DNA of 64,000 nt from the NCBI RefSeq assembly GCF_009914755.1, contig NC_060930.1; one strand, written 5' to 3'. A program made the position numbers and the translations under genes. How positions within the stretch are numbered: position 1 is the stretch's first letter; the number at the start of each line of letters is the position of its first letter. The stretch is from the human T2T-CHM13v2.0 reference genome, Homo sapiens. Of the stretch, positions 5,013 to 50,251 are shown one piece after another. Under the pieces are notes generated by a model that saw nothing but the letters and a program-made list of their open reading frames with translations, searched no databases and was not told the DNA's origin.

Positions 5013-5251
5013 ATATGATTATTATTCTAAAGCAGAAGCGCATTTTGAGAGAAGTTGGGTACTGGCTGTGGATCATTTAGCTGCAGTCCTCTTTCCTACA
5101 ACCTTGATTAGATCATATAAGTTCCAGAAGGGCATGCCACCACGAATTCTTCTTAATACTGATGTAGCCCCTTTCATCAGTGACTTTACTGCTTTTCAGA
5201 ATGTAGTCCTGGTTCTTCTAAATATGCTTGACAATGTGGATAAATCTATAG
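5013..5251 (+). CDS. LEG1: LEG1/C6orf58 penultimate coding exon (exon 5, 239 nt, phase 2 to phase 1)
   Basis: Acceptor tttgtcttttAG at 5011-5012 and donor GTAAGA at 5252. Reads (R)YDYYSKAEAHFERSWVLAVDHLAAVLFPTTLIRSYKFQKGMPPRILLNTDVAPFISDFTAFQNVVLVLLNMLDNVDKSI(G), which I recognise as human LEG1 homolog (C6orf58). Branch-point-like TGACTAAT at 4973-4980. Confidence 0.95.
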
Positions 5252-6468: not shown

Positions 6469-6548
6469 GTTATCTTTGTACAGAAAAATCTAATGTATAT
6501 AGAGATCATTCGGAATCTAGCTCTAGAAGTTATGGAAATAACTCCTGA
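6469..6548 (+). CDS. LEG1: LEG1/C6orf58 terminal coding exon (exon 6)
   Basis: Acceptor tcttttacAG at 6467-6468. In phase with exon 5 it reads GYLCTEKSNVYRDHSESSSRSYGNNS-TGA (6546-6548), matching the human C6orf58 C-terminus as I recall it. Confidence 0.92.
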
Positions 6549-6708
6549 AACATTTAACTTCAAACTTCAGGAAATGATTAATGAATTAAAAATGAAAAAC
6601 TCGAACTTGACAATCAGTAATTTCAAAAAATTAATGTCATCATGACCATGTAGTTTATTCTTTCTGATATTTTTGATTTATGCTTATTTGTTAAGATCTT
6701 GTACATGT

Positions 6709-10172: not shown

Positions 10173-14010
<3,838 letters not shown>

Positions 14011-17000
14011 ACAATGAGATCACATGGACACAGGAAGGGGAATATCACACTCTGGGGACTGTTGTGGGGTGGGGGGAGGGGAGAGGGATAGCATTGGGAG
14101 ATATACCTAATGCTAGATGACGAGTTAGTGGGTGCAGCACACCAGCATGGCACATGTATACATATGTGACTAACCTGCACAATGAGCACATGTACCCTAA
14201 AACTTAAAGTATAATAAAAAATTAAATTAAATTAAATTAAATTAAAAAAACAAGGATAAGGATAAAGACAGATCCTCACTGCTTCCTGCTGACAGGGGGC
14301 GCTATTTTAGGGAAATGGCAGTCAGAGCTTCCTCAGAGGCCTACCTAAGGGTTTCTGGCAAAAGGAGCCATAGACAAAGGCTTTGGTTGCATGATGGTTT
14401 GGAGTTTGATGGCCTGAAGGTGAGAAGAGACAAAGTGGGTTATTAGAAAACATATATAGAAATGGAATAAGGGAGGGGTAAGGACAGCTCAAAAATCCGG
14501 AGGCCTTTTAACCAGTTTGCACAATGAGAGGGGATGCCAAAAGCCTGACCAGTAAAAAAAACTTTTACCCTTTTGTCAGCATGTTAGGCTTCTGGGTTCT
14601 CTTCCCTGGAGCCCAATTCTAAGCCAACCAGTTTAAGGTTTGGGAAATTAACTCTTCCCATTTTGGAGGATGCATCTGAGGGGAGTGTCCTGTAGTTTGG
14701 AGACATGATTATCTATCGGTGAAAGGGATAGATGAAAATAAAGGAAAGAAGAAGGAATTTTTTCAGAGGAGTCCCAGGGGTTCAGGATGTATTCAAAAGG
14801 GGTACAGACTAAAGATTAATGGCTACTCTCTAGAAAGAGGGGAGCAGGTGTCCCTGGTTCCTTTCTTTTCCTAGCACATACCCAGGGCACATGGAGAGGG
14901 AAAATGAGACTTTCCTCTTTCTTTCCTCTGTCCTTATGTTCTCGAGTCTTGGTGACCACAACAGGGTGCCACCCATGGGTGTTAAAGTGGCTTTCAACCA
15001 TGTTAACAGGGGGGCCTAGGGGATGGGAGTATCTGCTCTTACCCATGTATGCGCTATCATCCCTGCTGTCAGTAGCCTTGAATTCCCTAGACCTCATTTA
15101 TGCCATGGATATTAGCGTGACCTTTATCCATGGAATGAGAAGCTAGGCTTAATTGGAGGGAATCAGTCATGCTCACCTGTGTTGTGCCTTTTAACCTCTG
15201 TTATCATCTGTTTCCGGATCCCTTAGATCCAGTTTTCTATTCTAGGGCTTTGATCCAAAGCTTGGAATTGAGTTTGGTACAAAAATCTGTCTTGTGGGGG
15301 TTGCAAGGACTCCTTATCATAAGCCAAATGCTAAAGTGAAGCTGTGGAATTGAGTCTTCCTCCAGCAAGGGAGAGAAAAGGATATCTTATGACATGCCCA
15401 GATAACTGGTGGCTATAGTTATGCTTGCTAAGATTTCAGTGCATTGTGCTTGGCTTTGATTAGCTCCCTTTGTTTTACTTTCCCAAAAAGGAATCCTCTG
15501 GGTTATGGGCACCCTATTCATTCCCATCACCTGGCAGAATTTGCAGGATAATTGCTCATAACTAGAATATTGATCCAGATTTTTATATTACCCATTCCCT
15601 TTTGTTTCTTCTGAGCTGCAGCTGGAGATCACTGGTTGGTTCACAAGAACAAGCAGGGTTAGTCTAAAATGTAGGCAAAAACTTAAAAAAACTAATGAGC
15701 TAATGAGTTTAGAATTTAATGACAAATATATGATAAGTTTCAAAACATAATTTCTGTCTCTCCAGTCCTCAGTTTTGTTAAAAAAAATCATGAAAGGACT
15801 GAGTTGTTTGCAAAATAGTCTTTAGTCTTATACTTGGCCTGACTATTTGCACAAAGTGCAGCAAGAATAATTATCTCTAAATAGGCATTTTAGATTGGCT
15901 TTGATGGGACTCTGTTCCACAAAGAATGTCAGATAAGACCTTTTAAAGTGAAGCACAGCCATGGATTTGTATCTTCAAATACCTGTGATTTGGGTGATCC
16001 TCTTCCCTTAAGGTCCCAAGATAAACTTGGAACTCCTGGGTCTGTTAGAAAGTGACATTCTTTACTGACTGCAGGTCAGGAACCCTATACAGGGACTGTG
16101 TAGAGAAGAGTATGAGGCCAGTTTTTCCCAAGGGGCTTTTATCAGCTCTGCAAGTTAAGCTTGACTCTTTAAAGGGAAGCAAACCCTTCCAGTCAAAACC
16201 TTAGTAAAACAACCAGTTTCTCCAATTGCATCCTGTTGCAAAAGAAAATGAATTCTTATTGCACTGATGCAAACAACTATATTGCTGTGAGTTAAGAATA
16301 TTCACAACTAATTTCCAGACTATAGAGGAAAAAGGCAGAGAGAAACAAACACGTTCCAAGTTTTGTTCACAGGAGTATACTGGACTCTGAAAAACAAAAC
16401 AAGGATCAGCAGTATTACAAGCAAATGTCAAAGAGATTGCTTCAGTTTTCTGAGTTCAGTCCATTCAGTTAGCTTATTTTGCTTGATGTTCATGAGTCCT
16501 GTACATCTTTCCTTTATTCCAATGTCACAATTTCCAAAGTTATCAGAAACCTATATTTGAGAGCACCTGTCAAATTTCTATAGCTTGTTATAAACCATCT
16601 TTTAAAAAGGATTAAAATATGGCAACAATTGTCTGTGAATAACAAAATGTCCAAGGTAGTTACAGTTAGAAACACATTTGACAATGAAGTTTGGTTATCT
16701 CTGTGATTTACAATAATTTAACATAACTACCTTAATTATGATTGATAGCATGTATTTTAGACATTAGAATTTTTGAAATCCCATACAATTTTGGAGCATA
16801 TATTAGTATTATTCACAAAAAAAGAAGATTGAACACCTTTTTGGCAATCCCATTTACCTAAATATGTACCTCCCTTTTGGATACTCCAGGGGCACTGTGA
16901 AGCCTCCAAAAGCCAGACATTAGGAAAGACAATTTTGAAACCAAAGTTTCATTTTGGGAAGCCTGCTAAATATGTTAGAGATTTAAAGCACAATGTTATG

Positions 17001-31859: not shown

Positions 31860-33499
<1,640 letters not shown>

Positions 33500-34335
33500 A
33501 AAAAACTCATCTTTCATGGATTTTTAGGCTATATGTCCTATAAATGTAACTCTCATTATAAAGTTTAAAAAATAATTTGTCCAAACAAATAATTCACTTC
33601 ATAATTTTTCATTATTTGATTTGAACCTCAGGTGTGGATGGGCATCTGTGAACAGTTTGGACATAATTATTCAGTTTGCATATTCCTCCTGAAAACAGTC
33701 CATAGATTCTCTGAATAAAGTGGGGCATTACGGTCGATTTTTCTAGTCTGTGACTATATGAGTGTTAGTTCTTCTCCACAGCTCATTGGAGCCAGTGTGG
33801 TGTGCACACCAAACATAGGGAAACTAATTCAGAGGCTACATTCTACCAGAACAAACGTATCTCCAGGGCATTTGTGTTTTGAAAATGATGCGTCATTTTT
33901 GGGCTGTGAGCCCATAACTCATAAACTGATGTGGACTCTAGAACTTTGGGCAGAAATGATGAACCACATGCACATATATATATCAGGGGAAGAATAAACA
34001 CAATGCACAGAGAGAAGTGAAAATGAATTTTCATGAAGCTCGAGAAATATAAAGAGTATTTTATTTTGGTTCCTGATGATTTTTCAGCTTTTGGTTATAA
34101 TATCCAGTGAAAACTATTTGCTCTTTCATCCTGTTGTTTCCATGCAATATTATTGTAATCTTCGCATAAATTCTCTCCTTTTGTTTCCTAATTTGCTTTA
34201 CTTATTCACTTCATGAAACTAAATTACTGTAATCTTTAATTTAATTTAATTACTAATTTAGATACTGCCAACTACCATTTCCAATACAAAAAGAACAATT
34301 CCTATTGTCTTAAAGCCATAAGTAGAAAACACATA

Positions 34336-36931: not shown

Positions 36932-36937
36932 TTTATT
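36932..36937 (-). promoter_or_regulatory. AATAAA polyadenylation signal of the LEG1 paralog
   Basis: tttatt on the + strand at 36932-36937, 23 nt past the restored-frame stop codon. Confidence 0.6.
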
Positions 36938-36960
36938 TCATTATAGATTTCTAGAAGTGT

Positions 36961-37060
36961 TTAATTTGAAAAGTGAAGGATAAATTCCAAAATTGCTAGA
37001 AAAAGTTTTCTTGCAACTGTTAACTTCATTAAAGTTTTCCATATGGTGAGAACAATGTTT
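36961..37060 (-). pseudogene. LEG1 paralog terminal exon 6 coding remnant (1-nt frameshift)
   Basis: Acceptor ccatttttctAG. The spliced frame gives ETLFSPYGKL*. With one base restored after ETL it reads LTIWKTLMKLTVARKLFLAILEFILHFSN-TAA (36963-36961), a LEG1-family-like C-terminal helix. Confidence 0.8.
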
Positions 37061-39195
37061 CTAGAAAAATGGTAAATTTATTTAAATGTTGTAGGAAAAA
37101 TTTCTATTTTGATCCCAAATGTTGAAATTGTTTACAACAAAATTCAACGTAATTAGTATCAAATTAATATATATTCATATACATTCTGTAATAAAACATA
37201 AAGTGTTTTGCTCTTTTAAATTATATATTATGCCTTAAAATTCAAATTGATGAGATTCATACGTAACTAAAAGGAACAAAAGATGATAAATACAGTGATG
37301 ATTAAATAAAAGAAAACCTGTAAACAATGAAGTGCCCTTTTTTCACATTTTAGATTGTTGCAAATTAAGATAACTGTGTGCAAGTTAGTTTGCTAATACT
37401 ATTTTTTGATATCTATGTAGATGTATAAATCTTAATATACAGTTTGCATTGTTTTGTCATTTGTTTTTGTTTTGTCAAGCACATAAACTATAGCATAGTC
37501 TTTAATTGCCACTTGGCAATACCTGATCCATGAACTCATTTTTAGTATTTTACTGTGTCATTATTCCAACAAGTTAAGCTAACAAAAGTACACATTAAAT
37601 GACAATTTCCATTGCCTCAAAGTGGAAAAATATAAGTCCATTCAATAGAAAGTTATGTATCATTTATGAGAATGATATGTGTAAATATTTGCCAACTTAC
37701 TAATATCTCAAAGATACATGGTTAATGAAAAAATTATAGCACAGAGCAGTGCCATATATATAATTTATTTTATGCAAACACAAAAGTTTTTATCAAATTA
37801 TTTATCCTCTTATTTACGTTCATTAATGCATATAAGATTTTTTGTAAGAGTGAGCCCAAAACATAAAAAATATTTATTAGTCAAGAATCAACGTATGAAG
37901 GTTAGGAGGTGATGACGGAGATGGTAAGTTTTATTTGCATTTAATAACTTTCTGTAGCAATTAAATTTGTGGTATCATATATAGAATATATTTTTGAAAT
38001 AAGTAAACTTATAGTCATAAAATGAAATGTTATTAAAATACGGGGAAAAAGTATTTAGTAATGGTATGAATTTTGAGTAGAAGAAGTGAGGGTGGATTGA
38101 TCCGTCAATCTGTAAGAAGGAAAGATACAGAATTCTCGAGCACTTCTGGTCCTGGGGCCTTTAAAAGATGGGCTCCCTCCTTCAACCGCTCTAACTCCAT
38201 TTATGTTTTGCAGGTGGCATGCAATAGTGAAGCTGTGAAGACTGGTGGAACCACAAATAGAAGGGTCCTAAGTCCCAGAATTACCATGGAAGAAAGTCTC
38301 CTGCAAATTGGGTAAACATCATGCATAATTATGTGAGCCAGGAAAAGAATCCTAATGAGTTATGCCATTAACATTTGAAGGTTTATTTATTAAAACAGCA
38401 AATTTTGCGCTAAGTAATACACACAACTGTTAAATTTAATGTACAATATATTCATTTTAATTTTGACTCATACCTTATTTCTAAATTTTGCTTTAGGGAA
38501 TAGAAATTATACACATGCACACATACCACATACACACACATATTTTATTCCCTCAATAGAGAAAGGAGTGAATGATATCTGGAGAATCTAATGAAAGTAA
38601 CTTTCAAGTTTATTATTATGTTCTTTCTTTTGTGTTTTCTATAAATAATTTGTAAATTTTGGAGAAATGTAACCTTTTCTAAGACCAGAATTTTGAGGGT
38701 TTTTTATTTTTGTTTTTATGCGTGCAATCAGGAGAACTGGATGAGGAAAGTCACAAAACAGAATTTATTGTGTGGTTCTGTTAGTCATGGGGAGTGTCAT
38801 TGTTTTGCTTATTATATTTTTCATTTAAAAATAAGGAATGAAGTAGAATAAAATAAAATAAAACTTGTCCAGGAAAGAAGTAAAAATTCCCATTATCTCT
38901 TTGCCAGATTAACATGCTGTGATATTGATCAGCTGTATTTGCACAAGAACCCTGTAGAAAAGTACATGCCAAGTCAGGAAGGGTCTATACTATAAGCCCA
39001 TTATATGAAACCTATCATAAACCCGCAAGAATTATTGTTAAAACCTTGAAACAGATAACTATAGGAACTTAACATTTCCTTCTTTAAACAGCCTATCATA
39101 ATAATTTATAATTCTGATTCCAAGGCTATCCCGTCAGCTAAGATATCAACACAACATATAGAATTTACAGAAAATAAATTATCTGTGTCTCTTAC

Positions 39196-39434
39196 CTGTA
39201 TGCTTATGCACTTTGTGCAGGAAATTTACAGCAAGCAAGACTATGTTCTGAAAGTTGGAAAAGTCACCGATGAAGTGGGCTTTATCTCCACTAACAAGTA
39301 TTCGTGGTGCCAGGTCCTTCTGGAATTCATTCATTCTAATCAAAGTTGTAGGAAAGCGTGTTGGAGCTAAATAATCCACAGATAAAACCCAGTTTCTTTT
39401 ACGATCTGCTTCTTGCTTAAAATAATATTTTAAC
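39196..39434 (-). pseudogene. LEG1 paralog exon 5 (239 nt, open frame)
   Basis: catttctattAG/ ... /GTAAGA. Reads LKYYFKQEADRKRNWVLSVDYLAPTRFPTTLIRMNEFQKDLAPRILVSGDKAHFIGDFSNFQNIVLLAVNFLHKVHKHT and aligns without gaps to 5013-5251. Confidence 0.95.
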
Positions 39435-40429
39435 CTAATAGAAATGTAGGGTAAAAGTATGCATTTAAAATTAGTCTACTCAGAGTTTTGCCAATTCAAT
39501 TTTCAAAACGGATAATCTGTCCAAAAGCTACCTTATTCTACTTTTTAGAATACAAATTGTATAAACTTGCTGTTGATTTTAGCCCCTAGGTTTGAAAATG
39601 TGAAGAGACATTACTAGAATTTTAAACTTGGAAATTACCATCCCAGAAATTTTGTAATTTTTAGCCAAATGTTTTTCCCTTTTCAAGCATGTTATCCTTG
39701 CATGTACTCTGAAATGTGACCAAATACTATTTTAAAATGTGAAGATGAAGATCAAAGGTGATGAGGCAAAACTTCTGCTGGATTTGGACATCTCTTGAAG
39801 AAGAGATGATTTTTATGTCAGGTGACCACTGAAAATGAAATAAATTAGAATAGCTTTTCTTGATTTTTAGGTGGTTTGGTATTTTTTTCCTCATGAATTA
39901 TGCTAGAAAGCCAGCTCCTCTCATCTTATTGAGGAATAAATTTTAATTTTATGTTTGTAGTGAACAGTTTTACATCTATACAATCTGCACCACCTGTTCC
40001 AATCAATCTTCTGAGCATGTAAACAGCTTGCTGTTTTGCAGCATGCTTGTTCCCTCCAAAATGATTTCCATCTCTCATTTTGCTCATTATGTCCTATGTC
40101 CTTCAAGGCCTATTATGGAAATTATATGGTTTGTTAGACTTCCCTTGGTGTTACTCTACGTATTACAGACATAGGGGGCTAGTTGTTATTGATTCAAAAA
40201 GCAATTAGAACATATCCTCTGGTCAACACTGTGAAAGAAACACACTTGTATATATGTGGTTCCCATGGAGTTATGGGAGTACAGAGTATGAAATTATGAA
40301 GCCTGTCCTGGATTACAGAAAAATTGGTTAGAACTTCACACTCTTATCAAAGCATCATAACCAATTCTTAGGTTTAAGAAAGAGAAGATTTGAGGAACAA
40401 AATATAAAAAATAAAAACAGTTGTTACTG

Positions 40430-43400
40430 TCTTTTAAACTTTAGCCATTCTAGTGGTTGTAAAGTAGTAGCTCATTGTGGTTTTGATTTATATGTCCTTA
40501 ATGACTAATGATTTCGACCAATGATTTTGAATATCTATGTACTTACTGGCCATTTGCATATCTTCTTTGGAGAAATACTTGTTCAAATCTCCTTTTTCTA
40601 TTTAAATTTTTTTATATCACTGAGTTGTAAGAGTTTTAAAATATATTTTAAATACAAGTCCCTTATCAGATATATGATTTGTAAATATTTTCTCCCATCC
40701 TGTGTACTATCCTTAACTTTTTCAATAGTAACTTTTGCAGCACCAAATTTTTAAACACTTCATGAAGTTCATTCTATTTTTTTGTCCTTTGTGCTTTTAG
40801 TGTCACATCTTAGAAAAAACATGTCTAACCCTAAGTCAAAAAATTTTTTCTAAAAGTTTTATAGTTCTAGCTCTAACATTTAGGTTTATAATGCATTTTA
40901 AGTTAATTTTGTTGTGTCGTAGAAGACAAACTTCATTCATTAGCATATGGATTTTTAGAAGACTAATCCATTTCCATTAAAGACTAATCTTACCCACTGA
41001 ATTGTCTTGCCCCCTTGTTAAAAATCAAGTGACCACAAATCTAAGCGTTTATATCTGGTCTCTCAATTTTATTCCATTAATCTATGTCTCTATTATTATG
41101 CCCTTACCACAGTTGATTACTTGTATGTCTTGATTACTGTAGTTTTGTACTAAGAGATTAATAGGGATTGCATAGAATCTGTGGATCAATTTAGGGAGAA
41201 TTTCCAACTTAACAATATTAAGTCTTCCAATCCATGAACACAGAAAGTCTTCCACTTTAAATGGATCTGTAATTTCTTTCAACAATATCTCATATTTTTT
41301 CAGGGTATCTAAGTTTTGAATTTCTTTCTGTTAAATTTATTCCTGTGATTTTTTTCCTCTTGATACTGTTAAAAATGTATCCGTTTTCTTAGTTTTATTT
41401 TAGAATTTTTTTTTCATTGTAGTGTATAGAAATACAATTGATTTCTGTATGTTGATCTTTCATTCTGCTGGGTCAATGAACTCATTTATTAACTCCAATA
41501 GTTTTTTAGTGGATTTCTTTGAGAAACAGAGAAAGTATTATTTTATCTTTTCCAACTTGGATGCTTTTTTATCTTTTCTTACCTAATCTCCCTCAGTAGA
41601 CCCTTCCATACAATGCTGAGTGGCAACAGTGGAGAATCTTGTCTTGTTTCTCATCTTACAGGGGAAAAATTCAGTGTTGCACCCTTATCATTGTTAGCTG
41701 GGGCTTTCTACATGCCCTTTATCAAGGTGAGACACTGCTCTATTCCTACGTTTTTGAGTGTTTTTGTTTTTTAATCATAAAAATGTGTTGGGTTTTGTCA
41801 AAGGCTTTTGCCGTGTCTACGTGATGATCATGTGGTTTTCGTGCTTTATTCTTTTAATATGTATACTATACATATTGATTATCAGATGCTAAACCAACAT
41901 GCATTCTTGGAATGAATCCTATTGGTGATGGTTTATAATCATTTTTATATATAGTTTGATTCTGTTTACCAATATTGTGTTGAGAGTTTTTACATCTATA
42001 TTCACAAGAAATGTAGGTCTGTAGAATTTTTTTCTTGTGATGCCTTTGTCTTATTTTGATATGATATTTGGTATAATGTTACCATTTTGCTATTTGTTCT
42101 TTTGTCTTATGTCTTTGCTTCTATTTTCCTTTGTTACTGCCTTCTTTTGTGGTAAACAAATACTTTCTAGTGTAACTTTTTAATTACCTTGTGGTTTATT
42201 TTACTATATACATTTTAGTCTGCTTTGCTATTGCTCTTAGCTGATGGGATTACAACTACCACCTCAACTTGAAACAACGTATTTCAGATTAATACCAACT
42301 TCTTTCAATAGTTTACATAAACCTTGCTACAATATAGTACCACTCCTGTTTCTCTCTCGTGCTATTATAGTCATGCTAATTACATCGTTCTACATTATAA
42401 ACCCATCAGAACAATTTTATAATTATTGCTTTATGCAGTTGTATTTCAAATAAAATAGAGAAGAAAAGTGACATGATACTATATATTTACAATCTATTTT
42501 ATATTTACCTATGTAACTCCTTTGTTAGTAGTTTATTTCATCATGTGAATTTGAGTTACCATTTAGCGTTCTTTCATTTCAGCCTGAAAAACATCTTTTA
42601 TTATTTCTTGAAAGTATGTCTGCTAATAAATTCTTTCAGTATTTGTTCATCTGCAAATATCTTAATTTCTCCATTTTTAAAGAATAGTTTTACAGGATAT
42701 ATAATTCTTCATTGACAGTCTTTTCCTTACAGCACTTCCAGTAGGTCTCCTGGCTTCCATGGTTTCTGATGAGAAATCAACTCCTAAACTTACTGAGGAT
42801 TCCTTGTACATGAGGGTCATTTTTCTCTTTCTGCTTATCAGATTCTCTCTTTGTCTTTGGACACTTTGACTACAATTTGTCTAAGTGTGGCTCTTGTTGA
42901 GTTTATCTTATTTAGAGTTCACTGAGCTTCTTGGATATATAGATTAATGTTTCTAAATTAAGTTTGAAAAGTTTCTTGCTATTTTTTTTCAAATATTATT
43001 TCTTCCCTTTTTTCTCTACCCTTACTTCTGGGAATCTCATTATGTATATCTCATATGCTTGATGATTTCTTATGGATCTGTGAAACTCTGTTTATTTTTC
43101 GTCATTCTTTTTTTCTTTCTGTGTCTCTAACTGTATAATCTCAATTTACCTTTATTCAAGTTCAGTGATTCTTTTCTCCTGCTAGCTTAAATCTGCTTTT
43201 GCGTATCACCCCCTTGGATTATTCATTTAGCTATTACACTTTTCAATTTCTGAATTTCTATTTTTTTCTATAGATTATATCTGTTTAATGATATTCTCTA
43301 TCTGGTAAGATGTTGTAAGTTTTCATGCTTTTTTTCTAATTCCTTAGACATGGTTTCTTTTCTTTCTTTCTTTTTTTTAAAAGCATTTTTAGTCATGGTA

Positions 43401-43598
43401 TCTTGTTATATTGCCCAGGTTGGCCTCAAACTCCTAGGCTCATGTGATTCTCCTGCCTCAGGTTCCTGAGGCAGGGATTACAGGCATGAACTATTACACC
43501 CAAGCTATTTCTATATGTATGTTCATATTAGCAAATTTAAAAATTTTATCTAGTAAGTCCATCATCTGGTCCCACTCAGGAAAACTTTCAATTGACTA

Positions 43599-43629
<31 letters not shown>

Positions 43630-44620
43630 CTCGCGCGCGCGCACGCGCACACACACACATACACGTGTGCAAAATAGTTTTCCAGTTCTTCACGTTTCTT
43701 TTATCTTTTTCCTAACACTTCCCATTTCATTTCATTTCAGAAAATATAAAGTAGCAACTCTGAAAATCAGATACTCCCTCTCACCAGGATTTGTTGCTTG
43801 GTTCATTTGTCATTGTTTGCTTAGTAACTTAGTAACTTGCCTGGACTACTTCTACATATGCACTGTATATGGCCTTCAAGGCCTTTTGCATCCTTGCCTT
43901 AGCCTTTACTTTTCACTTGTTCAGGGCCTCAAGGTCAGCCAGAGGTGGGAGATTTGAGCTTTCTCAGTTCTTGCCTAGCTTTGTCCACAGTCCTGCTCAT
44001 GTGAGTGGCCTAATAGATCCCCAGGAATATTTCAGAGCTTTCCAAGTTCTCTATGGACATATTATATCACAGATTGCCCTTTTAAGCTTTTAGCTCATCT
44101 CTTGTTTCCCCCAGCCGCTATGGCAGTCTCAGGTAGCTGAGGTTTAAAAAAAATTGATGCTAATTGTATCTTTTTACAAATACCTTGGGTATAAGGGTTT
44201 TCCCACAGAATGAGTAGTTCAAATAACTACCACATCCTGAGAAGGGAATTCTTCTGGGTAGCTGTAAGACAGGTTAAAAAGTGACTCTAAATTGCTTACA
44301 GATAGGGCTTTTAAAGAAGCTCCAAACACAAATATGCCCTTTTGATGGCTGCAAAGCTACAGGAGTTGCAAGGAGCTGGTTTTCAAGGCTATTGCAGAGC
44401 TGGGTAAAGTGGAGTGAGATAAGCCAACTTAAAATACCACAGACCATGTTCTTACCTACATTCATCATTTCTTTGAATAAACGTTTTTGACAGTTTTTGA
44501 TTGATATAAACCATTGGCTAATTCCAATAATTATTAAAATGTTTATTTTGATAATTTTTGTTAGTGCTTTGTTGCTTTTATGGAAGAGTGAATTTAGGGA
44601 TATCCCCACTCTGCTATTAT
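40430..44620 (-). mobile_element. Fragmented ancient L1M elements within paralog intron 4
   Basis: T-rich, with an ORF2-like peptide on the minus strand (CSWIGRLNIVKLEILPKLIHRFYAIPI, 41082-41285). Includes an Alu monomer remnant at about 43360-43505. Confidence 0.7.
43599..43670. repeat. Compound (GT)n(GC)n(AC)n microsatellite
   Basis: Near-continuous purine/pyrimidine alternation, self-complementary. Confidence 0.95.
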
Positions 44621-46177
44621 GGAAGCACCAACCAGATTAAAAAAATATATTAATAGATGAAGAAATGGAATCACAAGAAACAATTATCCAATTTTCTATA
44701 ATATGCCAATCCAGGATCTAAGACTAGATGTTCTGGTTCCAGAGTCTTATACTTAACTGCTACCTTATTTCCTCTTAAAATAATAGAAGCTATTTTGTAT
44801 TGATTTCTTATTATACTGTAGGTGTTATGTTATAAATGCTATATATATTGCTCAAAACAACCTCACAAGTTAGGTGCTGCTAGTATTCCCATTTTACAAC
44901 TGGAAAACTAATAAGAGATTTCACATGTCCGATAATTCAAGATTCATTATGCAGATTTGCCTGACCCTTAATGGAAATAATCTTAAATTCTATAAAATTA
45001 TTTTATATCAAAGAATGATTAATATTTTAATAAATATCCATATAAGGCCTTCTAAGATTATAAACCACAATACTCATTATCAGGATTTTGATATTTTTAT
45101 AGTATTAACATGCAAAATACCTTCCTTCCATTAAGGGATACCTTTGGAAGGATTCTCCTTGTCAGGACAACTGTTTTTCAGTGAAGTAAAATTCTGGTGA
45201 TATTTTAAGCAAAACTAATACTAAATAACTTCATACACTTATTCATATTTCAAAAATATTACTATTACATAAATTTTAGTATATATTCTTAAGTATGAAA
45301 ATGACAGAGGATCTTTCATGTAAAGTTGGGCATTTGAATACACGCATTTCTTTTTTCCCCCTTACCATATCAGAAGCAATAATACTGTGAGTACATTTGG
45401 AGAGGCAGCTATAACATTTTGGAAATCAAACGGATGAGTAGCAAAGGATTTAGCAGATCCAAGAAGTCTGAATCCTAAACTAGCAATGGGGAAAGCTAAC
45501 ACTGTATACTGTGTAGAATTCTCCCAACAATTGTGTGTTTGATTACAAGCACTTCTGGAAATTGGAGTGAAAGGTTTATTCCTGAAAACGGGAACTGTTG
45601 CTTGAAAGGCTGATAAAGAAATAGGCAGATTCAAAGATTACCTCTGATCCTTCACACAGTGATGAGTTAATTATCGACAAGACAAAGGAGAGAGTTTCTG
45701 AACTCTAGTAAACTGAGCGCAAATGAAGGCAACAGTACACCATGCTGAAAACAGAGATCTTAAGTGAAGACCTGCATACTGGATACTCAGACCTCCAATA
45801 TTCTTCTCTCACTAGACTCTTAAAATGCTGCAAGCCACGCCTTCTCTCTTGAAGCATAACATGGAAAATTTCTGGTAAATTCAACCAGCTTGAGAAGATA
45901 GGCATACACTTAATAAAACAGGAATTAACCAATTAAATTGCCCAGTCATGTGCTCTGCTGTACAGCAGTAAGCAAGCATTAGTCATATCCACAGAGTTTC
46001 AAATTAGCTCCTTACTGCCCCAATTTTAAATACCTATATATGACAAAGATTACAAGGTAGTTAAGAATGGTATCTTGAATAAGAGATACCATGAATAAGA
46101 CAAATTACACAAAGCAAATGAAAAAGCCACTTAGAATATACTGTAGGATAAGCAACCGTGTTTAATATTATAATATT

Positions 46178-46368
46178 GGCCGTGTGCAGTGGCTCATGCC
46201 TGTAATCCCAGCACTTTGGGAGGCCGAGGTGGGTGGATCACGAGGTCAGGAGTTCAAGACAAGCCTGGCCAAGATGGTGAAACCCCGTCTCTACTAAAAA
46301 TACAAAAATTACACTGCACTCCAGCCTGGGTGACAGAGCGAGACTCCGTCTCAAAAAAAAAAAAAAAA
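46178..46368 (+). mobile_element. AluS with most of the right monomer deleted
   Basis: Left monomer and linker join directly at 46311/46312 to cactgcactccagcctggg...polyA. Confidence 0.9.
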
Positions 46369-47887
46369 TTCTAATATTCGCAGAGAGGTGAGAAAATTTA
46401 TTGCAAAGAAAAAGCAGTGAGAAGATACAATAAGAGGATTCATTGAAGATCAACTTCGTTTATCTTAACTCAATGAAATCATAGAAATAGTATAGTAAGT
46501 AACCCTCAGCAAAGAGATTAGAAGACAAAGTGGAGGAAATTAGATAGGAAGTGCAAAAAGCAAAAATGTGGAAAATAAGATAAATAAAAACTATAAAAAT
46601 TAGATCTATTGTGCAGGAGATTCAACATAGAAATAATAGGAATTCCAATAATGAAACAGAGATAATGGAGTTTTAGATAGACTATGTGCTCCACAAAATG
46701 AATGAAAAATAACATAGCAAGTCACAACTGCTTGAAATTTAAGAAACTTTGTGGAAAAAAGCACCTTACAATATTTCAGAAAGATAAAAATTATACCCAA
46801 ACATTATGATCAACATACAGAATAATTCAGACTTTGGAGCTCAAAGAGACTGTCTCTGACCCTTTTGGTAGGAAGCAATAAATTCAGTGTTGACTTTTTA
46901 TTTTATAAAACTAAAACAGTTTTATTATGGAAAAGTTGCTATTTTCTAAAGAAGTTTAGTTTTGTATGTGACTGGGAAAATCCACAAATGAAAAAACAGT
47001 ATTTTTGAAACTATTTTCTATGATTCTAATGACTTGCTCTCAGTTGCCATCTTGATGTTGACAATTCTCACTCTACCAATAAGTTGTTATGATGGTTATG
47101 ATCCTAATTTATCAGACAGATATACCAAGGGGATGAACTCTTCCATCATCTCATAAAAATATCAGGCCGTGAAGCAACATAAAGAGAGAAAACATGCAAG
47201 GCAATGTGTCTCCCGTCTCTGATTTATTCATCTCAATTGGATATGAGGTCAGTGGGAAATATAACAGTAGATATTTAACAAGAACTCTTCAAAAATATAT
47301 GCCTCTGTTTATATATGTTTTTAAACGAGTCACCCATTCTTTCTTTCTTTCTACCCCATGTCTCACTCTGGATGGCAGAGTTGTATTTACTACATTCATT
47401 ATAAAACACAGAGTATTTTGACATTGTTTTTATCTATCTGGTGTAATAAAAAAGATGTGTCCTAAATATTTTCTTCCAAATATGTGGTAAACAAACCGTA
47501 TTCTTTGATAAAAATGATGTAGAGATCCTGTATTACTTGTCACTACATCCTTTTGGTTTACGGACATGCCAGTTCATGTTAAGACATATCTTTAAAAAAA
47601 AAACCCTCTCCTTCTTCTTCTGGTTAAATTTTGTTTGATTGTTTTTAATTTTTCTACGCTTCATGGTACAAACCTATTTTTCACATTTTTACCTGCCTAC
47701 TTAAAAAATATGTTTTGAACTTTATCCAGTAAAACGTTTTCTTGTCAGTTTTCCTTTTATCATAGTACTGCCCATGGTTGACATCTTGGTAAATAAGTAA
47801 ATTGAAAAAGATTTCAATAGAAAACATAGCATATGATGGAAAGATTGTTACCACATTGAAACAAAATCACTTTGGGCTTATTCTTAC

Positions 47888-47988
47888 CTATTGTGAAAAA
47901 TTTTATGAGCAGCCTTCAGGGTTGAGACATGTGCAGTCCCTAAGTACTTCAACAGGTCATCAGAGCTACTAGATGGTGACTTTACATG
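47888..47988 (-). pseudogene. LEG1 paralog exon 4 (101 nt, phase 0 to phase 2)
   Basis: ccttcttggatAG/ ... /GTAAGA. Open frame HVKSPSSSSDDLLKYLGTAHVSTLKAAHKIFHN(R) versus recalled LEG1 YLQSPFSKFDDLLKYLWAAHTSTLADNIKSFED(R). Confidence 0.9.
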
Positions 47989-48933
47989 CTATCCAAGAAG
48001 GAAAATGTTATTAATATTAAACAATTATTACCATCTCTCTTCCTGAAAATCAATTGTTTATAAATATAAATTTTTCAACATTCTAAATGAGAGGAGAAAA
48101 TTGTTTGTAAGAGTTAGGATATGAAGAATATAATGCCTAATGCTTCGTGGAGAGCTTAATATTAGTTATACTAATTACAAGCAACACTGAATGCATTTGA
48201 AAGGAATAAACCAAGTAAGGGTTGGTTTTTGAAATACTCATAATTTTATATTGTTCAGAACTAGAGCTTTAGTATTCCATTTGTTTATTTGTTTTTCTCC
48301 TATCATGCAATGAGCTTTCTATAAAGCAGTAAGAGTCAGAAATGGGGACAGGAGTGGGAAAAGTAACAAAATTTGATCTAACCACATACAATATAATGCG
48401 TAAGTTCTCTAAAGGGAAACTTTATCTTTGGTCATTTACTCTTCCACCCATGACATTTGACTTTGAACATCAATATTTGATTCTGATTGTCAAATGATCA
48501 TTTCAAGCAACTCATATGTAATTGCCTATGAAGACAGTTGAAATAAGTTGATCAAATTCATCACAATCTATTCCATAATTATATTTCTATATAAGTTATT
48601 AATCCATTGACCCAAAGTTAGGATTAACCAGAACATTTTCTACAACATTAAGCCATAATTTCTCTGTGTTCACATGTCTGTGTATAATTTATTTGATGTG
48701 AGAAGAGTGCATAGGACTGCCTCAATACATATTGGAAACAAAGGTGCTAATAAGATACGATGTCATGTGGCAATCTACTCATATTAATACTGCTAGCATC
48801 ATAATACACATTTTCATATTAGGAATTATTTTTTGGGAACATATTGTTCAATGCTTTAAAATTATACATAAAGTATTATACAAAATTATCTGGCTACCTT
48901 CAAAGGTTATTAATAAAAATATTAGAGAAAAAC

Positions 48934-49113
48934 TTGGTAAAATTCATGCCACATTTGTATTGTTTCTGGAAAGGATGAATTACAGCTAGAAACATTATAA
49001 CAAAAATTCATCTGATCCTTAGATGGTGGTAGAAGGACGACATTGTCTGATGATATCCCCATTATGCCAGAGTCGATCACAGCAAGATACAGCAGAAAGA
49101 TAATAATTAAAGT
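48934..49113 (-). pseudogene. LEG1 paralog exon 3 (180 nt, 5-nt frameshifting deletion)
   Basis: tttgtttatacAG/ ... caa/GTTTTT. Reads DFNYYLSAV, then shifts frame near 49088 to LAVIDSGIMGISSDNVVLLPPSKDQMNFCYNVSSCNSSFPETIQMWHEFYQ. Recalled LEG1 is DLNYFLSSLPFLAAVDSGVMGISSDQVRLLPPPK..FCYDVSSCRSSFPETMNKWNTFYQ (185 nt expected). Confidence 0.9.
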
Positions 49114-49249
49114 CTGTATAAACAAAGTTATTCTTCATATTATTACTATAGAAAAGAGGTTGTTTTTGAAGTAAAGAAATCTATCACAAAAGTAAACTCC
49201 ACAGATTTAGAAACATGTAGTAAAACTTAAGCAATAGCTCTGGGCACTT

Positions 49250-49540
49250 ATCCTTAACAAATTAACACAGGAAGAGAAAACCAAATACCACATGTCCTCA
49301 CTTATAAGTGTAACCTAAATGATGAGAACACGTGGACACAGAGAGAGGAACAACACAACACACCCTGGGGCCTTTCAGAGGATGGGAGGGGAGGAGAGAG
49401 AAGATTGGGAAAAGTAATTAATGGATGCTAGGCTTGATACCTGGGTGATGAAATGGTCTGTACAACAAATTCCTATGCACAAGTTCACCTATGTAACAAA
49501 CCTGCACTTGTACCCCTAAGGTAAAATAGAAGTTAAAAAG
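49250..49540 (+). mobile_element. Old L1PA 3'-end fragment
   Basis: aaaaccaaataccacatgtcctcacttataagtg...gtaacaaacctgcacttgtacccct. Confidence 0.8.
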
Positions 49541-50164
49541 AAGATTTTGTTAGAAATTTCCTTGAGGATCATTTGGAACTCAAATATGCTTTCCTTAAAA
49601 ACCCAACTTTCATAAAGCAAAATTGATTTATGTTGTAGATATATTATTTTAAAACATAGATAACAACTGCACTGAAAATTTAAATACTAATTAAATTCCA
49701 AAGCACAAAATGTAAAAAGGAAAAAAAATTAGTAACTCTATAGAGTGCTATACTTTTCTTTTATCAGAAGGTATTTTTTCCAAATTTGAAAGTCTGATAT
49801 GTCTTTAAAATATTTCTGCTATTTATCTAGATGTTTTTCTTGTAAACAAAGTTTTATTTTATAACATGAGATAAATTCCTACTTCGGTCTTAAGCATCTA
49901 AAGCAAGGTTTGAGGTTACTAGTTTCTTTCAAATGGCATTTCAATAATTGGATACACTGATTAGTAGATTTTAAAAATATGCATCTAATAACATTTCAAA
50001 ACATTTAGGTTTTAGGGTCAGAAGATTTAGGTCAAACAGATTGCTTTTGTAAAAGAACTAATTCTGGTTTTTGTTTTGGTTTCGAAAAATGGCATTTTAG
50101 ATTGATTTAGTCATTTGTGAAAAGGTAATCAATTCAAAGTTTATTATTAAAGCATTAATCTCAC

Positions 50165-50251
50165 CAGTCCCCCAACTGTTCATGGAGATGCACAGATGAT
50201 CCCCAGAGTCATGGCCACCATCTGTCGTTTGGGTGAGACCAGCTAATCTGC
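50165..50251 (-). pseudogene. LEG1 paralog exon 2 (87 nt, phase 1 to phase 1)
   Basis: ctctctactAG/ ... /GTGAGA. Reads GRLAGLTQTTDGGHDSGDHLCISMNSWGT(D) versus recalled LEG1 GRLADPTRRTNCGYESGDHMCISVDSWWA(D). Confidence 0.9.

What the first reader, a model, noticed from the sequence alone, without database searches (positions are those of the whole stretch)
36932..50251. Hidden five-exon LEG1 paralog on the minus strand, tail-to-tail with LEG1
Seen: five exons in the correct order and phase, each with AG/GT boundaries, and an AATAAA just after the last. Exon 5 is exactly as long as LEG1 exon 5 in this window (239 nt) and is 43/80 aa identical to it. The ORF track shows only parts of two exons. 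Known (recalled, not verified): LEG1 is a secreted glycoprotein family that includes zebrafish liver-enriched gene 1 and the monotreme lactation protein; several non-primate mammals have tandem LEG1a/b/c copies, whereas human is usually described as single-copy. Inference: this is the fossil of a second LEG1 gene lost on the primate or human lineage, i.e. a unitary-type pseudogene.
Basis: partly seen in the sequence, partly recalled or inferred. Interest (0 to 1): 0.85.

Follow-up and report, generated by a model that had tools for sequence, protein, structure and literature searches.

The report
Known dead LEG1b gene copy
This is the decayed remnant of a second LEG1 gene (LEG1b) that lemurs and many other mammals still keep intact; it is real, but it is already annotated and described in print, so it is ordinary.

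Summary
On the minus strand lie five LEG1-like exon relics: 50251-50165, 49113-48934, 47988-47888, 39434-39196 and 37060-36961. All have AG/GT boundaries, and an AATAAA sits at 36937-36932. They correspond to exons 2-6 of a six-exon LEG1 gene. Exon 1 (start codon, signal peptide, about 100 residues) was not found anywhere in the window.

The gene is dead. A net 5-nt loss in exon 3 and a net 1-nt loss in exon 6 shift the frame, and 6 of 43 near-invariant family positions are replaced.

A tree places the relic with a gelada relic and the lemur LEG1b proteins, inside the eutherian LEG1b clade and apart from C6orf58/LEG1a. An AU test rejects a primate-only duplication (p = 7e-9).

It is not hidden:
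- RefSeq LOC100420743 covers exons 3-5.
- Ensembl ENST00000403830 covers exons 2-4.
- Dang et al. 2020 (PMC7060313) already placed "the human pseudogenized Leg1" in the Leg1b clade.

The only increments here are the exon 6 relic with its poly(A) signal, which lies outside both annotated spans, and a list of the lesions. Interest is low.

The parts
50165..50251 (-). Exon 2 relic, 87 nt, open. It corresponds to residues about 101-128 of lemur LEG1b (P0003). AG acceptor and GTGAG donor; phase 1 at both ends.
   Evidence: tblastn (49 of 169 queries hit it); DNA read. Its first bases are the first bases of ENST00000403830.2 as printed in the supplement.
48934..49113 (-). Exon 3 relic, 180 nt where 185 are expected. 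A net 5-nt loss between about 49090 and 49089 shifts the frame. Read as it stands, the first stop falls at 49021-49019.
   Evidence: Pfam PF05612 Leg1 scores 32.3 bits (cut-off 25) on 49089-48934, profile positions 113-163.
47888..47988 (-). Exon 4 relic, 101 nt, open in its own frame. AG acceptor and GTAAG donor.
39196..39434 (-). Exon 5 relic, 239 nt, open in its own frame. Same length as C6orf58 exon 5.
   Evidence: Pfam PF05612 scores 32.5 bits, profile positions 206-280.
36961..37060 (-). Exon 6 relic (coding part), with the ancestral stop TAA at 36963-36961. A net 1-nt loss near 37051 shifts the frame; read in the exon 5 frame it stops after 10 codons. It lies outside the RefSeq span and outside the Ensembl model printed in 2020.
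   Evidence: DNA alignment to C6orf58 exon 6.
36932..36937 (-). AATAAA poly(A) signal relic, 23 nt after the stop.
   Evidence: The homologous place in C6orf58 reads ATTAAA in the alignment.
5013..5251 (+). C6orf58/LEG1a exon 5, the live paralog used as comparator. The two genes are tail to tail.
   Evidence: Hub table.
6469..6548 (+). C6orf58/LEG1a exon 6, coding part (comparator).
   Evidence: Hub table.

Best explanation
This is the human LEG1b pseudogene. LEG1 duplicated in tandem before the eutherian radiation, giving LEG1a (human C6orf58) and LEG1b. In the lineage leading to monkeys and apes the LEG1b copy was disabled where it stood.

What remains is exons 2-6 with their splice signals, stop codon and poly(A) signal. 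Exon 1, which holds the start codon and the signal peptide, is not found in the 13.7 kb upstream that the window holds. Exons 3 and 6 carry frameshifting losses, and conserved residues are replaced.

It makes no LEG1 protein and most likely has no function; it is decaying at about the neutral rate.

Shown here: the anatomy, the lesions, the family and the clade. Inferred: the order of events. Relaxation and probably the loss of the 5' end came before the ape/Old World monkey split, and the two frameshifts came after it.
For: Anatomy and lesions:
- Five collinear exon matches with canonical AG/GT sites.
- Introns of 1051, 945, 8453 and 2135 nt, so it is not a retrocopy.
- The joined exons read as they stand run into stops soon after the exon 3 shift; reading with X at the two breaks gives 236 codons without any other stop.
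- No trace of residues 1-100: tblastn with 15 N-termini gave a best E of 0.24 with nothing consistent on the minus strand upstream; hmmsearch of all six frames gave a best E of 2.1.

Family and identity:
- Pfam Leg1 scores above the cut-off on two exons.
- Identity is 70-76% to five intact LEG1b proteins, 86.4% (178/206) to the gelada relic, and 50-58% to eleven LEG1a proteins.

Trees:
- Careful tree of 31 rows: relic + gelada relic 100/100; + lemur LEG1b 98/88; LEG1b clade 100/98, with a branching order that follows the species tree.
- Quick tree of 49 rows: a LEG1b clade of 19 rows, SH-aLRT 96, including three species that also have a separate LEG1a-type row (Equus asinus, Oryctolagus, Chinchilla) and the gelada relic, whose live LEG1a counterpart is also a row.
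- AU test against 'relic + primate LEG1a are one clade': delta lnL 104.5, p = 7e-9.

Relaxed constraint:
- 6 of 43 near-invariant family columns are changed.
- Of 108 columns invariant in five LEG1b proteins, human differs at 13, gelada at 17, and both at 8.

Print and annotation: PMC7060313 passages and its supplement; hub annotation LOC100420743.
Against: - The absence of exon 1 holds only for the window, which ends 13.7 kb upstream of exon 2. An exon further away, or one decayed beyond recognition, is not excluded.
- The indel sizes are net values inferred from protein alignments, not from DNA of an intact ortholog.
- The gelada protein is an automatic prediction. That it starts at exon 3 may reflect the pipeline rather than the genome.
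- The careful search for the 49-row tree did not finish. In the quick tree LEG1a is a grade, not a clade, so the root of the a/b split is not resolved there.
- The AU group was named after the first tree had been seen, although it is the a priori rival.
- Function of LEG1b in any species is not shown. The paper could not detect pig Leg1b by RT-PCR.
- Transcription of the relic was not testable.
Confidence: 0.95

Rival explanations
1. A recent duplicate of C6orf58, specific to primates or humans, that decayed afterwards: an ordinary duplicated pseudogene with C6orf58 as its parent, as the RefSeq name 'C6orf58 pseudogene' suggests.
For: It lies 30 kb from C6orf58, has the same exon 5 length (239 nt), and is named after C6orf58 in RefSeq (hub table).
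Against: Exon 5 is only 70.7% identical in DNA, and the flanking intron sequence does not align beyond the splice sites. The relic is 70-76% identical to LEG1b of other orders but 50-58% to LEG1a, human LEG1a's close relatives included. Trees place it in LEG1b. The AU test rejects a clade with primate LEG1a, p = 7e-9.
Confidence: 0.02
2. The relic is no longer coding but is still transcribed and spliced, and acts as a non-coding RNA or as a regulator of C6orf58.
For: All eight internal splice sites and the AATAAA are still canonical. Ensembl holds a transcript model, though a pseudogene model is not evidence of transcription. A predicted lncRNA, LOC105377996, runs antisense through introns 4 and 5 (hub table).
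Against: No promoter or first exon was found. Conservation of short signals over this time span is compatible with neutrality. No paper names the locus.
Confidence: 0.05
3. A still-functional, merely mis-annotated LEG1 paralog that encodes a protein.
For: With X at the two breaks, 236 codons have no nonsense codon.
Against: Read as it stands, the frame hits a stop at 49021-49019, and many more follow. There is no start codon or signal-peptide exon. Six of 43 near-invariant positions are replaced, two tryptophans among them.
Confidence: 0.005

Closest known systems
LEG1b of other eutherians (Microcebus murinus XP_012591996 = P0004, named leg1b in PMC7060313; Eulemur P0003; pig pLeg1b)
   Same: Same clade, 74-76% identity to the lemur proteins, and the same exon junctions. 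The paper places Leg1b between Leg1a and Themis.
   Different: The human copy lacks exon 1, has two frameshifts and encodes no protein. The lemur models are open but end at 307 residues, without the tail encoded by exon 6.
Human C6orf58 / LEG1a, the live neighbour
   Same: Same family (Pfam PF05612), same exon 5 length, 42/79 identical codons in exon 5. Tail-to-tail neighbour, 30 kb away.
   Different: A different paralog clade, split before the eutherian radiation (the paper estimates about 100 Mya). C6orf58 is intact and annotated as coding.
Existing records of this very locus: RefSeq LOC100420743 and Ensembl ENST00000403830.2 ('pseudogene human leg1' in PMC7060313)
   Same: The same object. 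RefSeq spans 39218-49120 (exon 3, exon 4 and most of exon 5). The Ensembl model as printed starts at the first base of exon 2, holds exon 3 up to 16 nt before its donor, and ends with exon 4.
   Different: Neither record holds the exon 6 relic and poly(A) signal (37060-36932). Neither alone holds all five exons. Later Ensembl releases were not seen.
Theropithecus gelada predicted protein A0A8D2EQH7 (P0002)
   Same: Sister of the human relic (100/100), 86.4% identical. It covers exons 3-6 only, and it shares 8 departures from LEG1b-invariant residues.
   Different: It is open across exons 3-6 (209 residues) and lacks both human frameshifts.
Mouse pseudo-Leg1a (ENSMUST00000213962.1, PMC7060313)
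   Same: A disabled LEG1 copy next to the live gene.
   Different: Per the paper it clusters with Leg1a, so it is a lineage-specific duplicate and not a lost LEG1b. Not tested here.

Membership tests
LEG1 / DUF781 family (Pfam PF05612) | A match to the Pfam Leg1 profile above the gathering score. | tested here: met
   The exon 3 part scores 32.3 bits and exon 5 scores 32.5 bits against a cut-off of 25, at collinear profile positions 113-163 and 206-280. The three shorter exons (28, 33 and 29 residues) gave no Pfam match on their own, but they match LEG1 proteins by tblastn.
LEG1 / DUF781 family (Pfam PF05612) | The six-exon gene structure shared by human, mouse and pig LEG1a/b (PMC7060313). 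| tested here: inconclusive
   Exons 2-6 are present with matching junction phases, and exon 5 has the identical length. Exon 1 was not found in the window.
LEG1b clade (eutherian paralog of LEG1a) | Groups with the Microcebus leg1b sequence that defines the clade, and apart from the C6orf58 clade. | tested here: met
   with lemur LEG1b 98/88; LEG1b clade 100/98; 19-row clade, SH-aLRT 96; the alternative is rejected, p = 7e-9. Agrees with the paper's text on its Fig. S1D; the figure itself was not seen.
Unprocessed (intron-bearing) pseudogene | Retains introns and splice signals, and has a disabled reading frame. | tested here: met
   Four introns of 945-8453 nt with AG/GT sites. Two frameshifts with stops behind them.
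Unitary pseudogene (an in-situ loss whose ortholog is active in other species) | An intact ortholog exists in other species. | tested here: met
   Full-length or near full-length open predicted LEG1b proteins are found in lemurs, colugo, elephant, armadillo, carnivore, bats, horse, rhino, pig, rabbit and rodents. These are predicted proteins. Activity is not shown, and pig Leg1b was not detectable by RT-PCR in the paper.
Unitary pseudogene (an in-situ loss whose ortholog is active in other species) | Same syntenic place and orientation as the live ortholog. | not testable with these tools
   No mammalian genome collection is on hand. The paper's text gives the order SOGA3-Leg1a-Leg1b-Leg1c-Themis, which fits the hub table. 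Orientation is shown only in figures that are not held.
Unitary pseudogene (an in-situ loss whose ortholog is active in other species) | No parent gene in the same genome from a lineage-specific duplication. | tested here: met
   The split from LEG1a predates the eutherian orders. Annotation pipelines nevertheless name C6orf58 as parent, so the formal label may be 'unprocessed'.
Processed pseudogene (retrocopy) | Intronless, with a poly(A) tail and target-site duplications. | tested here: not met
   The exons are spread over 13.3 kb with introns.

The most novel reading that the evidence does not exclude
LEG1b may have died late and in steps. The Old World monkey copy still keeps exons 3-6 as one open frame, and the human copy has no nonsense codon apart from two frameshifts that the gelada protein lacks. 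The gene could therefore have been coding until near the ape/monkey split. A truncated product, or a spliced non-coding transcript from the relic, might still be made in some catarrhines.
Probability: 0.07. Interest if true: 0.25.

Novelty: already known. Interest (0 to 1): 0.1.

Why it matters
It matters little. The locus documents the loss of one of two old LEG1 (secreted glycoprotein) paralogs in monkeys and apes, and that loss is already recorded in RefSeq, in Ensembl and in Dang et al. 2020.

This check adds three things:
- A complete five-exon map, including an exon 6 relic and poly(A) signal outside both annotated spans.
- A list of the disabling lesions.
- A formal rejection of a primate-specific duplication.

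These could serve to tidy the annotation (unitary rather than 'C6orf58 pseudogene') and to date the loss once primate genome alignments are consulted.

Tried and rejected
It was replaced by per-exon references and local tblastn.
- Search for exon 1 (residues 1-100) led nowhere. tblastn with 15 N-termini at E up to 200 and a profile HMM over all six frames gave nothing above noise.
- Search for a third relic (LEG1c) or any further LEG1 piece, with 169 family proteins, found none. The extra matches were an alternative C6orf58 3' exon, repeat-derived matches of a marmoset model, and one read-through of the exon 4 donor.
- The careful bootstrap search for the 49-row tree did not finish in two runs (486 s). 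The quick tree is reported instead, and the finished careful tree has 31 rows.
- A literature search for LOC100420743, C6orf58P1 and 'C6orf58 pseudogene' returned 0 papers. The locus is in print only as 'human pseudogenized Leg1'.
- Rejected readings: retrocopy, recent duplicate, live gene, chance similarity (see rival explanations).
Full report
**What is there**

The window holds the last two exons of C6orf58/LEG1a on the plus strand (5013-5251 and 6469-6548; hub table). A stop-to-stop ORF list of the minus strand shows one long open piece, 39179-39475, whose translation resembles C6orf58 exon 5.

Using that piece as query, the large protein database returned nine LEG1 proteins. Two are lemur LEG1 homologs of 307 residues, and one is a 209-residue 'uncharacterized protein' of Theropithecus gelada that is 89% identical to the query.

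Local tblastn of eight of these nine proteins (P0008 left out) against the window gave five collinear minus-strand matches:

| LEG1b residues (P0003) | Window position |
|---|---|
| about 101-127 | 50252-50172 |
| 140-191 | 49089-48934 |
| 192-225 | 47988-47887 |
| 225-305 | 39436-39194 |
| about 300-337 (in full-length proteins P0006, P0007) | 37077-36964 |

Best E-values ran from 1.5e-8 to 7.8e-45. The plus-strand matches were the two C6orf58 exons.

**Anatomy, read from the DNA**

- Exon 2 relic: 50251-50165, 87 nt.
- Exon 3 relic: 49113-48934, 180 nt.
- Exon 4 relic: 47988-47888, 101 nt.
- Exon 5 relic: 39434-39196, 239 nt.
- Exon 6 relic: 37060-36961, ending in TAA.

Every exon is preceded by AG, and the first four are followed by GT. 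The junction phases (1, 1, 0, 2, 1) let the homologous codons join. The introns are 1051, 945, 8453 and 2135 nt. An AATAAA lies at 36937-36932, 23 nt after the stop.

The numbering follows from three facts. C6orf58 has six exons, and the 239-nt exon is its fifth (hub table). The paper states that human, mouse and pig Leg1a/b have six exons. Exon 5 of the relic and exon 5 of C6orf58 share 169/239 bases and 42/79 codons (BLASTP E = 6e-29).

**Why it is dead**

1. Nothing in the window matches the first 100 residues or so, which exon 1 encodes together with the start codon and the signal peptide. tblastn with 15 N-termini gave only scattered noise, and a profile HMM over all six frames gave a best E of 2.1. 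The window reaches 13.7 kb upstream of exon 2.
2. Exon 3 is 180 nt where 185 are needed. After the eighth codon the homologous reading continues in another frame, which is a net 5-nt loss. Read as it stands, the frame meets a stop at 49021-49019.
3. Exon 6 has a net 1-nt loss near its tenth base, so the exon 5 frame stops after ten codons.
4. Six of 43 columns that are at least 95% conserved in 22 intact family members are replaced, two tryptophans among them.

With X at the two breaks there is no further stop in 236 codons. For a sequence this short that is not remarkable.

**What it is**

Pfam's Leg1 profile (PF05612) matches the exon 3 part and exon 5 above the gathering score, at collinear profile positions.

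The X-read is 70-76% identical to five intact LEG1b-type proteins and 86.4% to the gelada protein. It is 50-58% identical to eleven LEG1a-type proteins, including those of gibbon and gelada.

A careful maximum-likelihood tree of 31 rows gives these supports:
- The relic joins the gelada protein (100/100).
- Both join the two lemur proteins (98/88).
- These join fur seal, mole and elephant (100/98), in the order of the species tree.
- Human C6orf58 exons 5-6 sit with gibbon, gelada, marmoset, tarsier, lorises and Prolemur in the other clade (81/81).

P0004 is the Microcebus protein that Dang et al. used to define Leg1b; the supplement shows the same sequence.

A 49-row tree with more named proteins recovers a LEG1b clade of 19 rows (SH-aLRT 96). 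It holds the second copies of donkey, rabbit and chinchilla and the gelada relic, and each of these four species also has a LEG1a-type row. This is the quick method only; the careful search was unfinished after two runs. In that quick tree LEG1a is a grade rather than a clade.

Forcing the relic and the gelada protein into one clade with primate LEG1a costs 104.5 log-likelihood units (AU p = 7e-9). The group was named after the first tree was seen, although it is the a priori rival. The copy is therefore an ortholog of an old eutherian paralog and not a young duplicate of C6orf58.

**When it died (inference)**

The lemur LEG1b models are open, so the loss follows the split from strepsirrhines.

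The branch leading to human + gelada is about three times as long as the lemur stem (0.156 against 0.051). Of 108 columns invariant in five LEG1b proteins, human differs at 13, gelada at 17, and both at 8. Constraint thus seems to have been relaxed before apes and Old World monkeys parted, and both tips have kept drifting since.

The gelada model starts at exon 3 and lacks both human frameshifts. That places the two frameshifts on the ape side. It also suggests, but does not prove, that the 5' end was lost first.

**What is already known**

Dang et al. 2020 (PMC7060313) was seen as follows: passages, section 17, supplement passages, and part 1 of supplement file 5. The figures were not seen. 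The paper writes that:
- only Leg1a could be found as a gene in human;
- the human pseudogenized Leg1 groups in the Leg1b clade (their Fig. S1D);
- Microcebus is the only primate with two predicted functional copies;
- Leg1b and Leg1c were lost in Euarchonta, and 'debris' remains in human and colugo.

Their supplement prints ENST00000403830.2, 'pseudogene human leg1'. It begins with the first bases of the exon 2 relic, runs through exon 3 up to 16 nt before its donor, and ends with the last bases of exon 4.

The platypus MLP paper (PMC4224336; passages only) discusses C6orf58-like duplicates but not this locus. A search for the RefSeq name and likely symbols found no paper.

**What could not be done**

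Orientation and synteny of the live LEG1b in other mammals could not be checked, because no mammalian genome collection is on hand and the figures are not held. Exact indels could not be fixed against ortholog DNA. Transcription of the relic could not be tested.

**Verdict**

Noticed in passing
window 6469-6561 (+), C6orf58 exon 6: The annotated frame of human C6orf58 exon 6 gives a tail unlike that of other mammals. The frame starting at the first base of the exon is open and aligns end to end with the C-terminal helix of LEG1b (residues 309-337 of 337; 10/29 identical, E = 2e-4). In the DNA alignment the C6orf58 exon starts 7 nt later than the relic's exon 6. Gibbon, gelada and slow loris LEG1a share the shifted tail, while Prolemur LEG1a keeps the ancestral-type tail. 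The LEG1a tail of several primates thus seems to be a frame-shifted derivative.
   Followed up: partly
window 33775-33879 (+): Residues 234-268 of a human partial protein (P0011, 'hypothetical LOC389429 isoform CRA_a') match here at 97% identity, E = 6e-18. This looks like an alternative terminal exon of a C6orf58 transcript, 27 kb past the annotated gene end and not in the hub table.
   Followed up: no
window 13914-14045 (+) and 33161-33253 (+): An insert in the marmoset C6orf58 model (P0014 residues 225-274) matches two places that lie in or beside stretches masked as repeats. The marmoset model probably contains an exonised repeat.
   Followed up: no
window 47848-47711 (-): One unnamed family representative (P0031, residues 182-230) matches the intron just past the exon 4 relic's donor (47% identity, E = 7e-7). 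That predicted protein seems to read through the same donor site in its own genome.
   Followed up: no
proteins P0003 and P0004 (lemur LEG1b): Both lemur LEG1b models end at 307 residues, a few codons past the end of exon 5, without the tail encoded by exon 6 that elephant, fur seal, mole and the gelada relic have. The lemur copies may also be altered at their 3' end.
   Followed up: no
window 49113-36961 (-), joined exons: The two frameshifts sum to -6. The joined exons read as they stand therefore come back into the ancestral frame in the last 30 codons or so. This is a coincidence of no consequence, because stops intervene.
   Followed up: yes
window about 43600-43700: A CA/TG dinucleotide run lies inside intron 4 of the relic, visible as alternating Cys-Val and His-Thr stretches in the ORF list.
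   Followed up: no
window 38214-38311 and 47116-47241 (+): Two exons of the predicted lncRNA LOC105377996 (hub table) lie antisense inside introns 5 and 4 of the relic. They overlap none of its exons.
   Followed up: no
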